Shown piece after piece: positions 7,511 to 51,799 of a stretch of 64,000 nucleotides of DNA. Source of the DNA: Octopus vulgaris (taxonomy: Eukaryota). The position numbers were made by a program, and so were the translations under genes. The stretch covers positions 36,518,001 through 36,582,000 of the forward strand of contig OX597839.1 in the NCBI GenBank assembly GCA_951406725.2, read 5' to 3'. The notes below the pieces were generated by a model. It did not search any database. It had not been told where the DNA came from and saw nothing but the letters and a program-made list of their open reading frames with translations. Numbering within the stretch: the stretch's first letter is position 1; each line of letters begins with the position of its first letter.

Positions 7511-8187
7511 TATTATAACCTGAATAAGGGGTGAGATGAGGTGGTGGTGACAAACTTGGTGGTGGGCTATCCCAGGCAGTACACATTCAAACTACACCAT
7601 TGACTATGATATTCACCCATTACTGACCGTAGGGACAATGCTAGTAAATGATGATGATGATGATGATTTTTTTGTTGTTGTTGTTATTGTGTGTGTGTGT
7701 GGACAATATAATTTCTGATGACATAACAGGTTTTGGCAATGTTGTGACAAGCTGTAACTGTGCAGATATTTAAACGACATCATAATATATTAAATTGATG
7801 TCAAACAAACATTGACAGTGTCACCTAAGAGAAACCGAAGTTAAATAATAAAAGACAGGAGACGGGAGACGGAGGGGGGGGAGACAGGGAAAAAGAGGAA
7901 GACTAGGAGAGAGAGAGAGAGGGTAGGAAGAGAGAGAGAGAGAGAAAACTGAAAGAATGACATGAGGGGAAGATGAGAGAGAGAGAAAGAGAAAGAGAAA
8001 ATATAGAGTAGAAAAGAAAAAAGAGAAAAATGTGGAATTGTCAACATTTATTCCAAATAAACCAGGGTTTTTTTGGGGTTTTTTTTTTTGTTAATCAGAG
8101 AAACATTTTTATCAGTCATCTGTCCAGAAAACTGAACAGATTATTTTTGTAATGAGTAATGAGGGGGGGAGGGATTACTAGAGGAAA

Positions 8188-8236
<49 letters not shown>

Positions 8237-8246
8237 GACACACACA

Positions 8247-8282
<36 letters not shown>

Positions 8283-9338
8283 GCACACACATGCACCCAC
8301 CATCTGGTGATTGTCAGAGGAAAAATATGTTAAACAGTAAAATTACAGCCAATTTCAACATCAATGGGGATCGTTTAATAAACATCAATATGAGATCATC
8401 ACGCGGTAAATAAAGTGGTGATGGCGGTGGTGGTGGTGGTGGTGAGTGGTGGATGGGGGAGGTGTTGGAGAAGTAGCAGTAATGTTGTTGGTGGTGGTGG
8501 TGACGGTGGTGATGGCAGAATCACTGGTACTGTAATCATGGTGGTGGTGGTCATGGTGGGGATGTTGACAGATGTAGTAGTAGTATTACTAGTGGTGATG
8601 TAGATGTCAGTGTAGGTTCTAAATTCTGTTGTGGTTGAGGGGTAAGTATCAAATTAAGTACATTACACGTAGTTCCAAACATCTACATTCCTGGTTCAAA
8701 TTTCAGCGAAACACTAGTTATATACGGGTTCCAAATTTTGGCAAAAGACTAGAAATTTAGAGGGGATGGGTAAGTTGATTATATCATCCTCAGTGTTCAA
8801 CTGGTACTTAATTTATTGACCCTGAAAAAATGAAAGGCTAAGTCAACCTCGGCAGAATTTGAACTCAGAACGTAAAGATGGACAAGACATTTTGCCAGGC
8901 ATGCTAATGATTCTGCCAGCTCACTGCCTTTATACCAGTTATATATTGGGTAGGTACCAGTATTTTCAACTTTATAAAGCTGTAAGCATGGCCCAGTGGT
9001 TAGGGTGTTGCACCCATGATTGCAAGATTGTGGTTTCAATTCCTGGACCAGGCAGTGCGTTGTGTTATTGAGCAAAACACTTCATTGCAAGTTGCCCCAG
9101 TTCACTCAGCTGGCAATGAGTAACCCTGGGGTGGACTGGCACCCCATCCAGGGGTGAATGTTGTGATCTCAGTCATTTATGTGCTACGGGAAGTGGGTAA
9201 CTGACCCTATGGGTTCCAAGATTTGAGACTGTAATGTCCAGGGGCTGATGATGATACGTATTGGGCATCAATCCAATGGGGAAAAAGTCAATGGAAATAA
9301 ATGCAGTGGGATTGAACCTGGGACCATGTGGTTGGGAA

Positions 9339-9571
9339 GGCGGCGAGCTGGCAGAATCATTAGTGCACCGGGCGAAATGCTTAGCGGTATTTCATCTGCC
9401 GTTACGTTGTGAGTTCAAATTCCGCCGAGGTCGACTTTGCCTTTCATCCTTTCGGGGTCGATAAATAAAGTAACAGTTACGCACTGGGGTCGATATAATC
9501 AACTTAATCCGTTTGCCTGTCCTTGATTGTCCCCTCTATGTTTAGCCCCTTGTGGGTAGTAAAGAAACATG
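9339..9571 (+). mobile_element. SINE-A inserted in a minus SINE-B head
   Basis: TSD tgtggttgggaag at 9327-9339 and 9572-9584. Confidence 0.9.
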
Positions 9572-9723
9572 TGTGGTTGGGAAGCAAAATACTTACCACA
9601 CAGCCACTCCTGCACCTGACATGAAACCTTATTATTCACTTGAGCTTCAAAATTAGCTCAGTTTTAGTTGAATCTCTTTTTTACATCCTTAAGAAGCTGA
9701 GTGGGAAGCTGGAGTAACCAAGT

Positions 9724-9952
9724 TTAATCCTTTTGATACCAACCCGGCCAAAACCACCTCTGGCTCTGTAGTACAAATGTCTTGTTTTCATAAGTTTTGA
9801 ATTAAAATCTTCCACCAAACCTTAGTCACAATTTATGTTCCTAACACCAGCTTAATTATTGCTAAGTTATTTCACTAAATTCTTTGTTATATTTAAAGTA
9901 ATTGAAAGAAACACAGAGAATCTAAAAATAAATACGGTAACGAAAGGGTTAA
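9724..9952. mobile_element. piggyBac-type MITE-A
   Basis: TTAA at both ends; family TIR ccctttcgttac/gtaacgaaaggg; ~220 bp; at least nine copies in the window. Confidence 0.85.
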
Positions 9953-10082
9953 CATTAAGGAGAGCAAGGGTTAATAAACACACCAACCTACAACGGTGGA
10001 AGGTTGGAGACTGATAGGGTCCCAGCTGTAAAACCAGGGGCTCATTAAGACGCACCCAACCCATCCATGCCTGCATGGAAAA

Positions 10083-10400
10083 GTGTGGTAAGTAGCTTGT
10101 TTACCAACCACATGGTTCCGGGTTCAGTCCCACTGCGTGGCACCTTGGGCAAGTGTCTTCTGCTATAGCCTTGGGCCGACCAATGCCTTGTGAGTGGATT
10201 TGGTAGACGGAAACTTAAAGAAGCCCGTCGTGTATATGTATATATATATATATATATATGCAGCACGGATTTTTGTCAGTGAACAGGTCACGGATTTTAG
10301 CGACGAAAATATTTTGACAAATTAAACTTAAATGTTGAAGTGAATCGAACGGCTTTTGTGTGTTTCTTAAATGGCTTATAAACACCTTCCACGCTGCAAT

Positions 10401-10462
<62 letters not shown>

Positions 10463-10675
10463 TGTGTGTGTTTGTGTGTCTGTGTTTGTCCTCCTAGCAT
10501 AGCTTGACAACTGATGCTGGTATGTTTACGTCCCCGTTACTTAGCGGTTCGGCAAAAGAGACCGACAGAATAAGTACTGGGCTTACAAAAGAATAAGTCC
10601 CGGGGTTAAGTTGCTCGATTAAAGGCGGTGCTCCAGCATGGCCACAATCAAATGACTGAAAAAAAGTAAAAGAGT
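10083..10675 (+). mobile_element. SINE-B carrying a ~140-bp insertion (10260-10402) in its internal microsatellite
   Basis: Both halves colinear with other SINE-B copies. Confidence 0.9.
10272..10321 (+). ncRNA. Candidate minimal type I hammerhead ribozyme, G3-C8 core variant
   Basis: tttgtca GTGAACA g gtcac-ggatttta-gcgac GAAA atattt tgacaaa: 7-bp stem I, stem II 4/5 pairs, palindromic stem III region aaaatatttt. Confidence 0.55.
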
Positions 10676-11059
10676 ATATGACGAGGATAGAATAAGAGTA
10701 CTAATTGCATGAATATGGGAGAATTCTCTCCATAGAAAGACCCCAGTGTTTTATAACAGAGGAGTACTATTATGCTTCTTGTTGTTGTGAAAGGTTTCTA
10801 ATTACACACGTACCATGGCCAGCCTTTCATCTACCCCCGCCTCACTCCCCCTGCCCCATAATCTAGATTGTACAGTGTTTCATAATTGTAGTAGCAGCAG
10901 CAGCAGAAAAAGATGAAGTCTTCAGATCTTTGGAAACACTTGAACAATACACTCAAAGGAAACAGTATAATTGGCAATTAGAAGGACTTGTGGTAATGGT
11001 GATGGTGTCATTTACCTCCTTATTTGGAACAGAGAAAAAGAGAGAGAGACAGGCAGGCA

Positions 11060-11540
<481 letters not shown>

Positions 11541-12039
11541 AGGAAAACCAATAGAAATAAAGAGAAAGTGAGTGTGGGTACAGATAGAAAGTTGGAGGGT
11601 TATAGAAAGGGTGGAAAACATGGAAATAGAGGAGAGAGAATCAAGTAAGAAACAGTCCTAGTTCTTGCTCCTCTTCCTTCTCCTCCTATAGTTTGTCTAG
11701 TCCCCCCCCCCCGTATTGAAGTCTCTTAATCTCTGCCATAACAGCAAATACTATGGAAGTCTTTTGTTGCAAAGGAACACATGGAGAGGTCAGAGGTTAC
11801 AGGTCAGAAGTAAACTCACTGAAACTGGAAGTTCATAACATTTATTGTTAGGGGTACAGACAGAGACTGTCACCATTTTGCAGCCACCAGCTCAGCTGCC
11901 TGTCTATTTAGCCTACACATAATTCAAAGGCATAAACAGACACCAGACAGGTACCAAGTCAGTTTGTTTAACCTATTGAAGAGAAATGCAAATATGCATA
12001 AAGGAATATATATATATACATTAGGTCATCCCATGAATA

Positions 12040-12427
12040 CTCTTTTACTTGTTTCAGTCATTTGACTGCGGCCATGCTGGAGCACCGCCTTTACTCGAGC
12101 AACTCGACCCCGGGACTTATTCTTTTGTAAGCTCAGTACTTATTCTATCGATGTCTTTTTGCCGAACCGCTAAGTGACGGGGACATAAACACACCAGCAT
12201 CGGTTGTCAAGCAATGCTAGGGAGACAAACACAGACACACACACACATATATATATACATATATACGACAGGCTTCTTTCAGTTTCCGTCTACCAAATCC
12301 ACTCACAAGGCTTTGGTCGGCCCAGGGCTATAGCAGAAGACACTTGCTCAAGATGCCACGCAGTGGGACTGAACCTGGAGCCATGTGGTTGGTTAGTAAG
12401 CTACTTACCACACAGCCATTCCTGTGC
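12040..12427 (-). mobile_element. SINE-B, full length
   Basis: Reverse complement of the SINE-B consensus. Confidence 0.9.
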
Positions 12428-12833
12428 AGTTTTTTTAACTTTATTTTTCAAAATTAAGATAAAGTTCTTTATTAATCTAAAATATACTCTCCTTCATTTT
12501 CTACAATTCTCTTCCATCTATGTGGTAGACTTGCAAAGCCCCTCTTCCAAAATTCACTTGTCCGTGATGAAAAATACTACTCCATTATTGTTCCGACCTT
12601 GTCTACAGAATTCATATTTTTTCTGTCCAAATGATTTTGAAGACTGCAGAATGAATGATAATCAGATGGGACAATGTCCGCCAAATATGGTGGGTGGAGC
12701 CTTGTTTCCCATTTAAACTGCTCCAGCCTTTGGAATGTCATCCTTACTCTATGTGGTAAAGTATTTAGAAATAAATTAAGAGGAGGAGGTTAATGCTCCT
12801 TTCCTCCACCTCCCAGTCTAATTGATGCTTAGT

Positions 12834-13059
12834 TTAACCCTTTCATTACTGTATTTACTTTGAGATGCTCTGTGTTTCTTTCAATTACTTTAAATATAAC
12901 AAAGAATTTCATAAAATAACTTAGTTATCATTCAGCTAGTGTTAGGAACATAAATTGTGACTAAAGTTTGGTGGAAGATTTTAATTAAAACCTTATGACA
13001 AGGCATTTATACAACAGTGCCAGAGCCAGTTTCGGCCGGGTTGGTAACAAAAGGGTTAA
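12834..13059. mobile_element. piggyBac-type MITE-A, sharing a TTAA with MITE-B
   Basis: TTAA 12834-12837 and 13056-13059; opposite orientation to 9724. Confidence 0.9.
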
Positions 13060-25231: not shown

Positions 25232-25638
25232 CATCATCATCATCATCATCGTTTAACATTCGTTTTCCATGCTAGCATGGGTTGGACGGTTCACCTGGGG
25301 TCTGGGAAGCCAGAAGGCTGCGCCAGGCCCAGTCTGATCTGGCAGTGTTTCTACAGCTGGATGCCCTTCCTAACGCCAACCACTCCATGAGTGTAGTGGG
25401 TGCTTTTTACGTGCCACCGGCACAGGTGCCAGGGGAGGCTGGCAAACGGCCACGATCGGATGGTGCTTTTTACGTGCCACCGGCACAGGGGCCAGATGAG
25501 GCTGGCAAACGGCCACGATTGGATGGTGCTTTTTATGTGCCACCGGCACGGAGGCCAGACGAGGCTGGCAAATGGCCACAATCGGATGGTGCTTTTTACA
25601 TGCCACCGGCACAGGGGCCAGATGAGGCTGGCAATGGC
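25232..25638 (-). mobile_element. Element C with ~3.8 copies of a 63-bp VNTR
   Basis: Units start at 25399, 25462, 25525, 25588. Confidence 0.92.
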
Positions 25639-28676: not shown

Positions 28677-29595
28677 TAGGGTGGAGTGAAAATGAAAAAT
28701 TGTGGAAATTGAAAATGCCCAAGGCCTAAAATCATCATCATCATTGTTTAACGTCTGCTTAGCATGGGTTGGACGGTTCAACTGGGGTCTGTGAAGCCCG
28801 AAGGCTGCACTAGGCCCAGTCAGATCTGGCAGTGTTTCTACAGCTGGATGCCCTTCCTAACGCCAACCACTCCGTGAGTGTAGTGGGTGCTTTTTACGTG
28901 CCACCGACACAGGTGTCAGACGAGGCTGGCGAACGGCCACGCTCAGATGGTGCTTTTTACGTGCCACCAGCACGGAGGCCAGGCGAGGCTGGCAACAGCC
29001 ACAATCGGATGGTGTTTGTTACGTGCCAAAGGATGATTCTTTTACGTGCCACCGGCACTAAAATGGTAAAGATGGGAGAAGGCAGAAGGCGCCTGCCGAC
29101 CCTCTGCTTCTCTAAAACATTGTTTTTAAAAATACATATACCGAGGTAATGACCCTCTTACAATTCAAAATACAATATCTTTCGACCAAAAAGTCCATCT
29201 AACCACAAATTACAATTTCTACACAAATTAGGGGTGATAAACCTCTACAATTCTTCCCCCAGTAAATTTTGTGCAATTTGCAGGCATTGCTGCCACCGAA
29301 GTCTGGGACTCCAATAGAGGATTAAAATCTTACTATATATTATTACTAGAAAAATGATAAATTTTCGTTTTGATCAATCAAGGGCATTTACTCCCTCAAA
29401 CCCCCACAAACTCTGCTATTGCAAAAAATTTACAAAAATCCCCAGTTTTTGGAGTTTAGAGAGTAAATTTAAGAGAGTAAATGCCCTTCATTGATCTCAG
29501 CGAAAATTTAGCATTTTTCAAGTAATCAAAAATAGCAACATTTAACCCTCAGGCATTTTCAATTTCTACAATATTTTTATTTTCACTCCACCCTA
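28677..29595. mobile_element. TIR/foldback DNA element interrupted by element C (28732-29058)
   Basis: ~45-bp TIRs tagggtggagtgaaaat...gaaattgaaaatgcc; additional internal inverted repeat at about 29317-29549. Confidence 0.7.
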
Positions 29596-40016: not shown

Positions 40017-40718
40017 TTAACCTTTTCATTAACCCAGCTGAAAACCATCTCTGGCTCTCTAGTAAATGTCATCGACCCCACCAGCTGAATGATAGCTAAA
40101 TTATTTTACTAAATTCTTTGTTATATTTAAAATTAATTGAAAGAAACACAGAGCATCTCAACAGAAATAGGGTAACAAAAGGGTTAAAATATATAATAGA
40201 GAAACAATTCTTAACCTTTTCATTACCAACCCGGCTGAAACTGCCTCTGGCTCTGTAGTACAAATGTCTTGTTTCCATAAGTTTTGAATTAAAATCTTCC
40301 ACCAAACCTTAGTCACAAGTTATGTTCCTAACACTAGATTAATGATAACTGAGTTATTTTACTAAATTCTTTGTTATCATCATCATCATCGTTTAACGTC
40401 TGTTTTCCATGCTAGCATCGGTTGGATGGTTCAACTGGGGTCTGGGAAGCCAGGGGACTGCGCCAGGCCCAGTCTGATCTGGCAGTGTTTCTACAGCTGG
40501 ATGCCCTTCCTAACGCCAACCACTTCATGAGTGTAGTGGGTGCTTTTTACGTGCCACCTGCAGTGGTGCCAGACGACGCTGGCAAACGGCCACGAACGGA
40601 TGGTGCTTTCACGTGCCACCGGCAGGAGGGCCAGGCGAGGCTGGCAACAGACACGAACCGATGGTGCTTTTTACGTGCCATTTAAAATTAATTGAAAGAA
40701 ACACAGAGCATCTGAAAA
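40017..40718. mobile_element. MITE-A dimer with 23-bp spacer; second unit split by element C (40378-40680)
   Basis: TTAA at 40017, 40184, 40211; MITE sequence ttgttat|atttaaa resumes after the insertion. Confidence 0.85.
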
Positions 40719-41871: not shown

Positions 41872-42255
41872 TTTAACCCCGCCAAGGAGGTTATATTTTG
41901 GTTTGGGAAATTGAGCGATTTTCTAGAAACATCTAGAATAGGATTGCATCATTTCCTAAAATAGAGATTTCAATATATAATGATTTGCCTAACGTGTGTG
42001 TGTGTTTCAATCTTTGAACTGCAGCCGTGGTGGGACACCACCTTGAAAAGTTGAGCAAATTGACCTCACTACTTATTTTTAACATTATTTACATTTGACG
42101 GATATTTGTCCTCAACTTGTTTATTGTTAACACAACGTTTCAGCTAAGGTTATGTTTTATTGGTTTGGGAAATTGAGCGATTTTCTGCATGCGTGTATAT
42201 GGGTGGAAATGAGCTGCTTGGCGGAGGTCTGTGCTCTCTGAGTGCTTTTCTAGTT
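41872..42255 (+). mobile_element. Helentron/HINE-type non-autonomous element with an internal templated insertion
   Basis: Subterminal inverted repeat ccgccaag / cttggcgg, 3' mini-hairpin gtgctctctgagtgc, terminus ctagtt. Confidence 0.7.
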
Positions 42256-42520
42256 ATTATTATTATTCAGGCCACTGCCTGGAATTGAACTCAGAATCTT
42301 GGGGTTAGTAGCCCACGCTCTTAACCACTACACCATATGGCCTGAATAATAATAATAATAATAACAATAATAATAATAACATCAAAAAATAACTTAGGAA
42401 TGAGAACCTAGGTTTGAAATTTCCCCAAGACACCTGATGAAGGCTGGAGGGTATATCAGCCGAAACGTTGTGTTAACAACAAACAAGTTATGGACAAATA
42501 TCCGTCAAATGTAAATAATG
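42256..42520 (+). mobile_element. tRNA-headed element with (AAT)n linker and hammerhead tail; head inverted
   Basis: Minus 42268-42338: tggtgtagtggttaagagc...gagttcaattccaggc; flanked by inverted ggcctgaataataat; ribozyme at 42429-42474. Confidence 0.7.
42429..42474 (+). ncRNA. Minimal type I hammerhead ribozyme (Penelope-type)
   Basis: gacac CTGATGA a ggctg-gagggtatat-cagcc GAAA C GTT gtgtt: stem I 5 bp, stem II 5 bp, loopless palindromic stem III (AACGTT). Confidence 0.8.
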
Positions 42521-51024: not shown

Positions 51025-51350
51025 AGATATAACCTTGAAATGGAGGGACAGATGGATGAGAGGGGGTGGGTGTAGAGGGACATTCTTGGAAAGTGGTAGA
51101 GGGGTAGTAGTGATAGGGGTAGTAGTGATGGTGGTAACGGTAGGGTGGGTGATAGTGTTTGGCTCTGGATGAGCCCTGCTCCAGCAGAAGTAAGAGGAAG
51201 GGTTTGGCTGTCTGTGACCATCCTGTCTTTCAGTCACTCACACAGCACATTCTGGGGCCACGTTTATCTGTATCTCGTATGATTTTTTTTTAGCTTTAAA
51301 CCCTCCCCCCCCCCCGATGTGCAGTTTAATGGAGATTTGGTTACTGTTTC

Positions 51351-51799
51351 CTATTTCTTTACTACCCAAAAGGGGCTACACACAGAGGGGACAAACAAGG
51401 ACAGACAAATGGATTAAGTCGATTATATCAACCTCAGTGCGTAAGTGGTACTTATTTAATCGAACCGGAAAGGATGAAAGGCAAAGTCTACCTCGGCGGA
51501 ATTTGAACTCAGAACGTAACGGCAGACGAAATACCGCTAAGCATTTCGCCCGGCGTGCTACCGTTTCATATTTCTTTATTGCCCACAAGCGGCTAAACAT
51601 AAAGGGGACAAACAAGGACAGACAAACGGATTAAGTCGATTATAGCAACCCCAGTGTGTAACTGGTACTTATTTAACCGACCCCGAAAGGACGAAAGGCA
51701 AAGTTGACCACAGCGGAATTTGAACTCAGAATGTAACAGCAGATGAAATACCGCTAAGCATTTCGCCTGGCGTGCTAACGTTTCTGCCAGCTCACCGCC
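51351..51799 (-). mobile_element. SINE-A dimer with a single 14-bp TSD
   Basis: TSD ttggttactgtttc at 51337-51350 and 51800-51813. Confidence 0.92.

What the first reader, a model, noticed from the sequence alone, without database searches (positions are those of the whole stretch)
10260..10402. Hammerhead fold with compensatory C3G/G8C core swap
Seen: the insert in a SINE-B (TA)n reads stem I (7 bp) - GUGAACA - g - stem II - GAAA - palindrome - stem I. Known: C3 and G8 of CUGANGA form a tertiary Watson-Crick pair and the double swap can rescue activity. A G3/C8 pair inside an otherwise correct topology is unlikely by chance and is missed by CUGANGA motif searches. Caveats: UUU cleavage triplet and one stem II mismatch (consistent with CpG decay).
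Basis: partly seen in the sequence, partly recalled or inferred. Interest (0 to 1): 0.75.

Follow-up and report, generated by a model that had tools for sequence, protein, structure and literature searches.

The report
Swapped-core hammerhead in Penelope-like retroelement
This stretch is one of about 9,000 copies of the end repeat of a jumping gene, and it carries a hammerhead RNA motif in which two paired core letters have traded places relative to sister families; the motif likely still cuts itself slowly, but cutting is untested.

Summary
Window 10260-10402 is the terminal repeat (pLTR) of a young Penelope-like retroelement (RT plus GIY-YIG, Nematis-type linker), inserted in the (TA)n of a SINE. 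It carries a minimal type I hammerhead fold. G3-C8 is family-fixed: 8,635 of 9,588 pattern matches. The stem II mismatch is private decay (G in 72 of 77 copies). Homologous pLTRs of sister families have G8 in 26 of 26 matches (C3 24, U3 2), with compensatory stem changes, so the swap is a real covariation, though one event. A tandem copy places the motif 56 nt before the likely start codon. Short copies begin just upstream with an extra G (22 of 28), a probable cap signature, so inserted templates were likely uncut. 5' ends do not pile up at the cut site. The other young sister family has lost A9. Best reading: a slow, dimer- or protein-dependent ribozyme; activity untested. PLE hammerheads and natural U3-A8 are published; I found no natural G3-C8 in eight searches, but two key papers were not held. 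The scan already reported this family elsewhere in the genome (e1-8670522, e1-8667090). New variant of a known kind.

The parts
10083..10235 (+). 5' half of the host SINE (target element, not part of the finding)
   Evidence: 8 other window copies at 86-95% identity over about 150 nt
10236..10259 (.). (TA)n target tract, left side; the last two bases may equally be the element's own positions -1 and 0
   Evidence: natural upstream sequence
10260..10402 (+). pLTR fragment of a Penelope-like element; inferred to be the first ~145 nt of the element's transcript, ending at the shorter of two 3' ends (no tail)
   Evidence: 41 full-length matches at 96-100% among 40 scored of 966 candidates; 3' ends at 140-147 in 37 and at the tail end in 42 of 91 matches; tandem copy L327
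10272..10278 (+). hammerhead stem I, 5' strand (7 bp with 10315-10321)
   Evidence: the only common family change (A to G at 1.3, 13 of 81) keeps a U-G pair
10279..10286 (+). core G3-U4-G5-A6-A7-C8-A9 plus the extra G between positions 9 and 10.1
   Evidence: 8,635 of 9,588 matches G3-C8; no variant at 5% or more at G3 or C8 in contigs of 4 public runs
10287..10304 (+). stem II (5 bp; A10290 is a copy-specific mismatch) and loop II, the most variable part between subfamilies
   Evidence: G at this place in 72 of 77 copies; loop classes
10305..10314 (+). G12-A13-A14, 2-bp stem III with palindromic loop (predicted dimer arm), U16.1 and U17; predicted cut between 10314 and 10315
   Evidence: self-duplex only -2.0 kcal/mol
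10315..10321 (+). hammerhead stem I, 3' strand
10371..10402 (+). likely start codon and first codons of the element's RT-endonuclease ORF
   Evidence: in tandem copy L327 the same ATG opens a frame that runs through the tail into the RT N-terminus; 39% identical over 122 aa to the sister family's N-terminus, E 7e-29
10409..10459 (.). (TA)n target tract, right side
10461..10676 (+). 3' half of the host SINE
   Evidence: 7 other window copies at 85-93% identity over about 210 nt

Best explanation
The stretch is a pLTR fragment of a young Penelope-like retroelement family and holds a minimal type I hammerhead fold whose 3-8 pair is G-C where sister families have C-G; it likely self-cleaves slowly, as a dimer or with help from the element's protein. 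Shown: identity of the element, its partial-tandem layout (pLTR, tail, ORF, 1-kb 3' UTR, pLTR, tail), family-wide fixation of G3-C8, homology to C3-G8 sisters, and the motif's place 56 nt upstream of the in-frame ATG. Inferred: transcription starts about 16 nt upstream of stem I, so the motif lies in the 5' UTR of a capped RNA; the two hammerheads of a tandem transcript (4,261 nt apart in L327) pair through their palindromes; cutting would uncap the message and release a unit-length RNA. Inferred: short copies such as this one arise when reverse transcription starts inside the RNA at the pLTR end or tail and runs to the cap on an uncut template. This particular copy is solitary, has a stem II mismatch and is probably inert.
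For: Element: open frame of 997 aa with RT motifs, CxxxCxxC linker and GIY-YIG (Pfam PF01541, 25.5 bits, above cut-off), motif about 1 kb after the stop; full tandem L327; 30 of 60 loci taken in genome order hold copies in both orientations; (TA)n targets and an optional ~60-nt tail, as described for PLEs (PMC8557442). Fixation: 8,635 of 9,588; 30 of 34 copies not chosen on the core. Covariation: sister family (54% aa identity) and older relatives, found with a pattern that left positions 3 and 8 free, have G8 in 26 of 26 and C3 in 24, U3 in 2; pLTR homology runs past the motif into the tail (61% over 164 nt for L187). On a 30-row alignment the 3-8 pair is kept in 30 of 30 rows (C-G 20, G-C 8, U-G 2), stem II in 96% of cells with an A-U/G-C exchange; covariation score 0.248 against 0.157 +/- 0.013 shuffled and at most 0.130 slid. 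If just two of 13 core positions differ, the chance that they are 3 and 8 and complementary is about 1 in 230 (my arithmetic). C3G/G8C partly restores cleavage in a PLE hammerhead, which needs the protein (PMC11167929). Cap signature: 34 of 91 matches start at -3 to 0 and only 4 run more than 10 nt further upstream; of 36 distinct copies that start at -3, the base before is G in 22, A 3, T 3, and the natural C in 8 (22 of 28 non-C, p 3e-10 against 0.22); an extra G marks cap copying in full-length L1 insertions (PMC11702581).
Against: No cleavage assay or raw RNA reads. The swap is one evolutionary event counted 8 times, 4 of those 8 rows were picked with a G3-C8 pattern, and the shuffle control ignores relatedness; stem I is paired in only 55% of cells because the canonical rows are decayed and have shorter stems. 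5' ends do not gather at the predicted cut: 2 of 30 loci start exactly there, one of them explained by stem I microhomology. The cap signature means inserted templates were uncut. The other young family has C at position 9 in 8 of 8 loci found through its ORF, so core constraint in this clade may be loose. In PMC11167929 hammerhead mutants did not affect insertion in vitro and no RNA reads ended at the cut site. PLE minimal hammerheads cleave poorly in vitro even as dimers (PMC4209133). U17 triplets are slow (recalled). About 8 of the extra-G junctions can be read as microhomology with the inverted arm (12 of 18 remain, p 6e-5; by eye, test). Clade was judged from the linker only, not from a tree.
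Confidence: 0.65

Rival explanations
1. The motif is a catalytically dead hammerhead relic; the fold is kept for another job (protein binding, promoter or 5' UTR structure) and the 3-8 pair is kept for folding only.
For: Uncut, cap-ended templates dominate the short copies; no 5' ends at the cut site; the young sister family lost A9; hammerhead cleavage was dispensable for insertion in vitro (PMC11167929); PMC4209133 does not exclude functions other than cleavage.
Against: The 3-8 pair forms in the catalytic conformation (PMC8495972 passage; PMC6155905), so keeping it through a double transversion points to selection on that conformation; all other core positions are kept in the family; the engineered swap is partly active.
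Confidence: 0.25
2. The swap was fixed by drift in one master copy under no constraint, and amplification made it look conserved.
For: One event only; no second G3-C8 family among 30 loci of a search that excluded this family's stem II; inserted copies decay without favouring paired doubles (45 double departures, only 4 of them C3-G8).
Against: G3-C8 is the majority in every loop II class with 2 or more copies and in copies whose protein is 73-85% identical to the query copy, while loop II changed repeatedly; chance of hitting exactly this pair and keeping it complementary is about 0.4%.
Confidence: 0.07
3. The 5' boundary of the short copies is a 3' splice site, not a transcription start: the copies come from spliced RNA and the extra G is the end of an upstream exon.
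For: The 22 nt upstream read like a branch point, pyrimidine tract and CAG; in Drosophila virilis Penelope an intron ends at helix I (PMC4209133; PMC2377424).
Against: No shared sequence lies beyond the extra G (positions -5 and -6 mixed); truncation would not stop three bases into an exon so often.
Confidence: 0.15

Closest known systems
Minimal type I hammerheads in pLTRs of metazoan Penelope-like elements (Cervera and de la Pena 2014, PMC4209133)
   Same: Type I topology, extra nucleotide between 9 and 10.1, G10.1-C11.1, short palindromic stem III, place in the pLTR, most copies solitary or in inverted pairs.
   Different: Core pair G3-C8 (their consensus is CUGANGA; their one core covariant is U3-A8 in Schistosoma); extra nucleotide G where their consensus gives H; 7-bp stem I; UUU triplet.
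Natural U3-A8 hammerhead variants (Perreault et al. 2011, PMC3088659)
   Same: Natural compensatory change at the 3-8 tertiary pair.
   Different: U3-A8 is two transitions that can pass through a U-G wobble; G3-C8 is two transversions with no paired intermediate, and is fixed in a family of thousands.
Poseidon element of Anolis (PAc) and its engineered C3G/G8C mutant (Frangieh et al. 2024, PMC11167929)
   Same: Hammerhead at the pLTR-ORF junction, tail overlapping the ORF start, internal start of reverse transcription, uncut RNA as main template; same double swap.
   Different: There the swap is a laboratory mutant of a C3-G8 ribozyme and the cut site is 26 nt downstream of the start codon; here the swap is natural and the predicted cut is 56 nt upstream of the likely start codon.
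Nematis-type C-terminal endonuclease PLEs (Craig et al. 2021, PMC8557442)
   Same: Single RT plus GIY-YIG frame, cysteine linker with a short spacer (7 aa) as in the Nematis rows of their Fig. S2, (TA)n targets, tail, inverted 5' copies.
   Different: RT3-RT4 distance of 129 aa, about twice that of the canonical rows in their Fig. S1; clade not tested by a tree.

Membership tests
Hammerhead ribozyme, type I | Three stems around the core in type I order | tested here: met
   Stems I and II in minimum-energy and centroid folds; stem III is 2 bp and can form only between two copies
Hammerhead ribozyme, type I | U4, G5, A6, A9, G12, A13, A14, A15.1-U16.1, H17, G10.1-C11.1 | tested here: met
   Sequence; family majority (most of these letters were fixed by the search pattern for those loci, but hold also in ORF-found copies)
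Hammerhead ribozyme, type I | Literal consensus C3 and G8 | tested here: not met
   G3 and C8 in 8,635 of 9,588; no Rfam hammerhead match
Hammerhead ribozyme, type I | Watson-Crick pair between positions 3 and 8 | tested here: met
   Paired in 30 of 30 aligned rows across families
Hammerhead ribozyme, type I | Loop I-loop II tertiary contact | not tested
   Minimal PLE hammerheads generally lack it (PMC6155905 passage)
Hammerhead ribozyme, type I | Site-specific self-cleavage | not testable with these tools
   Genomic 5' ends give no support (2 of 30); no raw RNA reads were offered
Minimal PLE hammerhead | Lies in the pLTR of a PLE | tested here: met
   Both pLTRs of tandem copy L327
Minimal PLE hammerhead | Extra nucleotide after A9 and palindromic stem III | tested here: met
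   G10286; palindrome 10306-10315
Penelope-like element with C-terminal endonuclease | One frame with RT then GIY-YIG | tested here: met
   997-aa frame, PF01541 above cut-off; RVT_1 only weakly in the sister protein
Penelope-like element with C-terminal endonuclease | Partial tandem, inverted 5' copies, optional tail | tested here: met
Nematis clade | CX2-5CxxC linker with short spacer; placement on an RT tree | tested here: inconclusive
   Linker fits the Nematis rows, not the Neptune rows; no tree built
Non-LTR retrozyme | Non-coding head-to-tail repeats, each with a hammerhead | tested here: not met
   Window copy is single and the family has a coding partner; one locus (L045) holds 8 head-to-tail copies

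The most novel reading that the evidence does not exclude
Penelope-like elements tune down their own hammerhead. The ribozyme sits in the 5' UTR, where cutting uncaps the message; both currently amplifying families of this clade carry a core change (G3-C8 here, C9 in the sister) while older relatives are canonical. Weakened cores would be selected because they leave more capped, translatable and insertable RNA, and G3-C8 would be a natural, active, family-fixed example of the laboratory swap that CUGANGA searches miss.
Probability: 0.25. Interest if true: 0.65.

Novelty: new variant of a known kind. Interest (0 to 1): 0.42.

Why it matters
If it cuts, this is a natural G3-C8 hammerhead in thousands of copies: evolutionary proof of the 3-8 tertiary pair by a double transversion, and a reason to widen ribozyme search patterns, which in the PLE papers read were built on CUGANGA. 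The family also offers a test bed for an open question, what PLE hammerheads do: there are near-intact tandem copies, sister families with canonical and A9-changed cores, and a probable cap signature that places the ribozyme between transcript start and start codon. The gain is an increment within a known system, and this scan has noted the family before.

Tried and rejected
Rfam scan of 8000-13000: no hammerhead family at E up to 10, only microRNA models on (TA)n. MITE reading (the insert's ends are partly complementary): rejected, copies extend into a UTR and ORF. Part of the SINE: rejected, flanks differ among 30 loci. Hydra-type RT fragments next to copies L005 and L050: judged to be targets, since the family's own ORF is a different one. 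Neptune clade, my first label: dropped after reading the linker alignment. A C3-G8 subfamily inside the family: not found; 4 of 45 double departures are C3-G8, one of them a sister family and one apparently unrelated; doubles exceed the independent expectation (45 against 25) but at least 4 of 30 fetched were unrelated and age differences would do the same. Most older ORF copies (9 or more of 18 fetched) gave no pLTR match within reach. Metagenome scan: 1 relative, no hammerhead found in its short 3' flank. RNA: no holder on record as RNA and no raw reads; contigs of 4 runs show presence only. PDB profile search gave one weak RT hit. PMC5785218 (Lunse 2017), PMC1986816 (Przybilski 2007) and PMC2151028 were not held.

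Full report
Observation. It interrupts the (TA)n of a SINE with many copies in the window. The whole insert is no more stable than shuffles (z -0.28) and Rfam finds no hammerhead, but the 50-nt motif folds into stems I and II, at -7.9 kcal/mol for this copy and -13.3 for a copy with the majority base.

The family. A DNA search of the genome gave 966 candidates; the 40 scored yielded 41 full-length matches at 96-100%. Four pattern searches that split positions 3 and 8 gave G3-C8 8,635, other-C8 359, G3-other 549 and other-other 45, with 0, 1, 1 and 5 control matches: 90.1% of 9,588. Copies found through the ORF or the UTR, not the core, are G3-C8 in 30 of 34. In 60 loci taken in genome order, the mismatch position is G in 72 of 77 matches and U17 in 80 of 81; loop II varies between subfamilies, and the one common stem I change keeps a U-G pair. 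Contigs of four public runs with four organism codes show no variant at 5% or more at G3 or C8.

The element. Walking upstream led through a microsatellite-rich 3' UTR to a GIY-YIG frame. Copy L121 has an open frame of which 997 aa belong to the element, with RT motifs, a cysteine linker and PF01541; 111 homologues were found, the best labelled Octopus vulgaris by its source. L327 is a full partial tandem: pLTR, tail, ORF (one stop and two frame breaks), 3' UTR, pLTR, tail. Copies end at one of two places, 140-147 (37 of 91) or the tail end (42 of 91), and 30 of 60 loci hold both orientations. This is the layout described for PLEs (PMC8557442, passages, section 11 and part of the supplement). 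The linker has the short spacer of the Nematis rows, not the long one of Neptune; no tree was built.

Covariation. The best homologue is a second young family in the same genome (54% identical over 734 aa; 150 scored copies at 98-100%). [quoted passage not shown] A pattern built on its stem II, with positions 3, 7, 8 and 9 free and G excluded at 15.2, gave 26 matches (control 0): 7 of the young sister and 19 more diverged relatives. All 26 have G8; 24 have C3 and 2 U3; 17 of the 19 have A9. Homology with the swapped family extends into the tail. On an alignment of 8 swapped and 22 canonical rows the 3-8 pair holds in 30 of 30, stem II in 96% and stem I in 55% of cells. This is one event, and the shuffle control ignores kinship. 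Still, the swapped core and the A9 relatives differ at just the two paired positions, about a 1 in 230 coincidence by my arithmetic. A search for other G3-C8 families found none in 30 of 255 matches examined.

How it likely works. In L327 an ATG 56 nt after the predicted cut opens a frame that runs through the tail into the RT N-terminus and aligns with the sister's N-terminus; the window copy holds this ATG at 10371. Short copies start just upstream of the motif: 34 of 91 at -3 to 0, only 4 beyond -10. Among 36 distinct copies that start at -3 without the natural upstream sequence, the preceding base is G in 22, C in 8, A in 3 and T in 3. An extra G marks cap copying in L1 (PMC11702581, passage). 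I infer a capped transcript starting at -3, with the hammerhead in its 5' UTR, and short copies made by reverse transcription that starts internally at the pLTR end or tail, as shown in vitro for the Anolis element (PMC11167929, parts 1-2 of 4). These templates were uncut. A search for copies truncated near the cut site showed starts spread over positions 48-68, with 2 of 30 at the bond itself. A tandem transcript has two hammerheads 4,261 nt apart that could pair through the palindrome (self-duplex -2.0 kcal/mol). So I expect slow, conditional cleavage (about 0.65), with a dead relic as main rival (0.25). A splice-site reading of the 5' boundary remains possible, since the upstream bases resemble an intron end and Penelope has an intron there (PMC2377424, passages).

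What is known. Minimal hammerheads in pLTRs, the extra nucleotide, the palindrome, low activity and a natural U3-A8 family are in PMC4209133 (parts 1-2 of 4 and a search of supplement file 2; file 1 could not be searched). U3-A8 is also in PMC3088659 (passage and section 8). The C3G/G8C swap is known as a partial laboratory rescue (PMC8495972 passage; PMC11167929; PMC3884650 passage). I found no natural G3-C8 hammerhead in eight full-text searches or in passages of PMC6765202, PMC10085705, PMC6155905 and part 1 of 5 of bioRxiv 10.64898/2026.07.22.740005. Lunse et al. 2017 and Przybilski and Hammann 2007, the two papers most likely to bear on this, were not held, and bioRxiv supplements are closed. 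Two earlier reports of this scan describe what appears to be the same family on other pieces of this genome; they are not independent support.

Verdict. A real, family-fixed core variant of a known PLE ribozyme, supported by cross-family covariation, with activity untested and with genomic evidence that most copied RNA is uncut. New variant of a known kind; interest 0.42.

Noticed in passing
window 42428-42472 (+), partial inverted copy about 42086-42160 (-): A second, canonical C3-G8 minimal hammerhead of another PLE-like family, with an extra A after A9 and a 6-nt palindrome; the same motif occurs in L071.
   Followed up: partly
L173:1742-1793 and 7 other loci: The young sister family has C in place of the conserved A9, although it has many near-identical copies with open frames of about 1,310 aa.
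   Followed up: partly
P0001 residues 441-570 (L121): The RT3-RT4 distance is 129-131 aa in this protein and three relatives, about twice that of canonical PLE rows; an insertion in fingers was described only for N-terminal endonuclease PLEs.
   Followed up: no
L045:1894-3238: Eight head-to-tail copies of the hammerhead unit at about 172-nt spacing, a retrozyme-like array that could fold as dimers.
   Followed up: no
L327:4700-4721: The bases just upstream of the inferred transcript start resemble a branch point, pyrimidine tract and CAG acceptor.
   Followed up: partly
L211:1500-1540 and about five more rows listed: Some inversion junctions switch strands exactly at the complementary stem I arms, which suggests fold-back priming at stem I.
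   Followed up: no
L085:1330-1400: Another repeat family with the same hammerhead architecture, a different palindrome and U3 opposite G8 in this copy.
   Followed up: no
L081:8211-9721 (+); L050:450-1500 (-); L005:937-1320 (+): Broken PLEs of other kinds next to family copies: one with a Neptune-type long linker, two with Hydra-type RT motifs.
   Followed up: no
window 25399-25634, 28886-29028, 40539-40680; 2364-2731; 51342-51784: Recurrent 62-63-nt tandem arrays and 184- and 217-nt tandem duplications that belong to other dispersed repeats.
   Followed up: no
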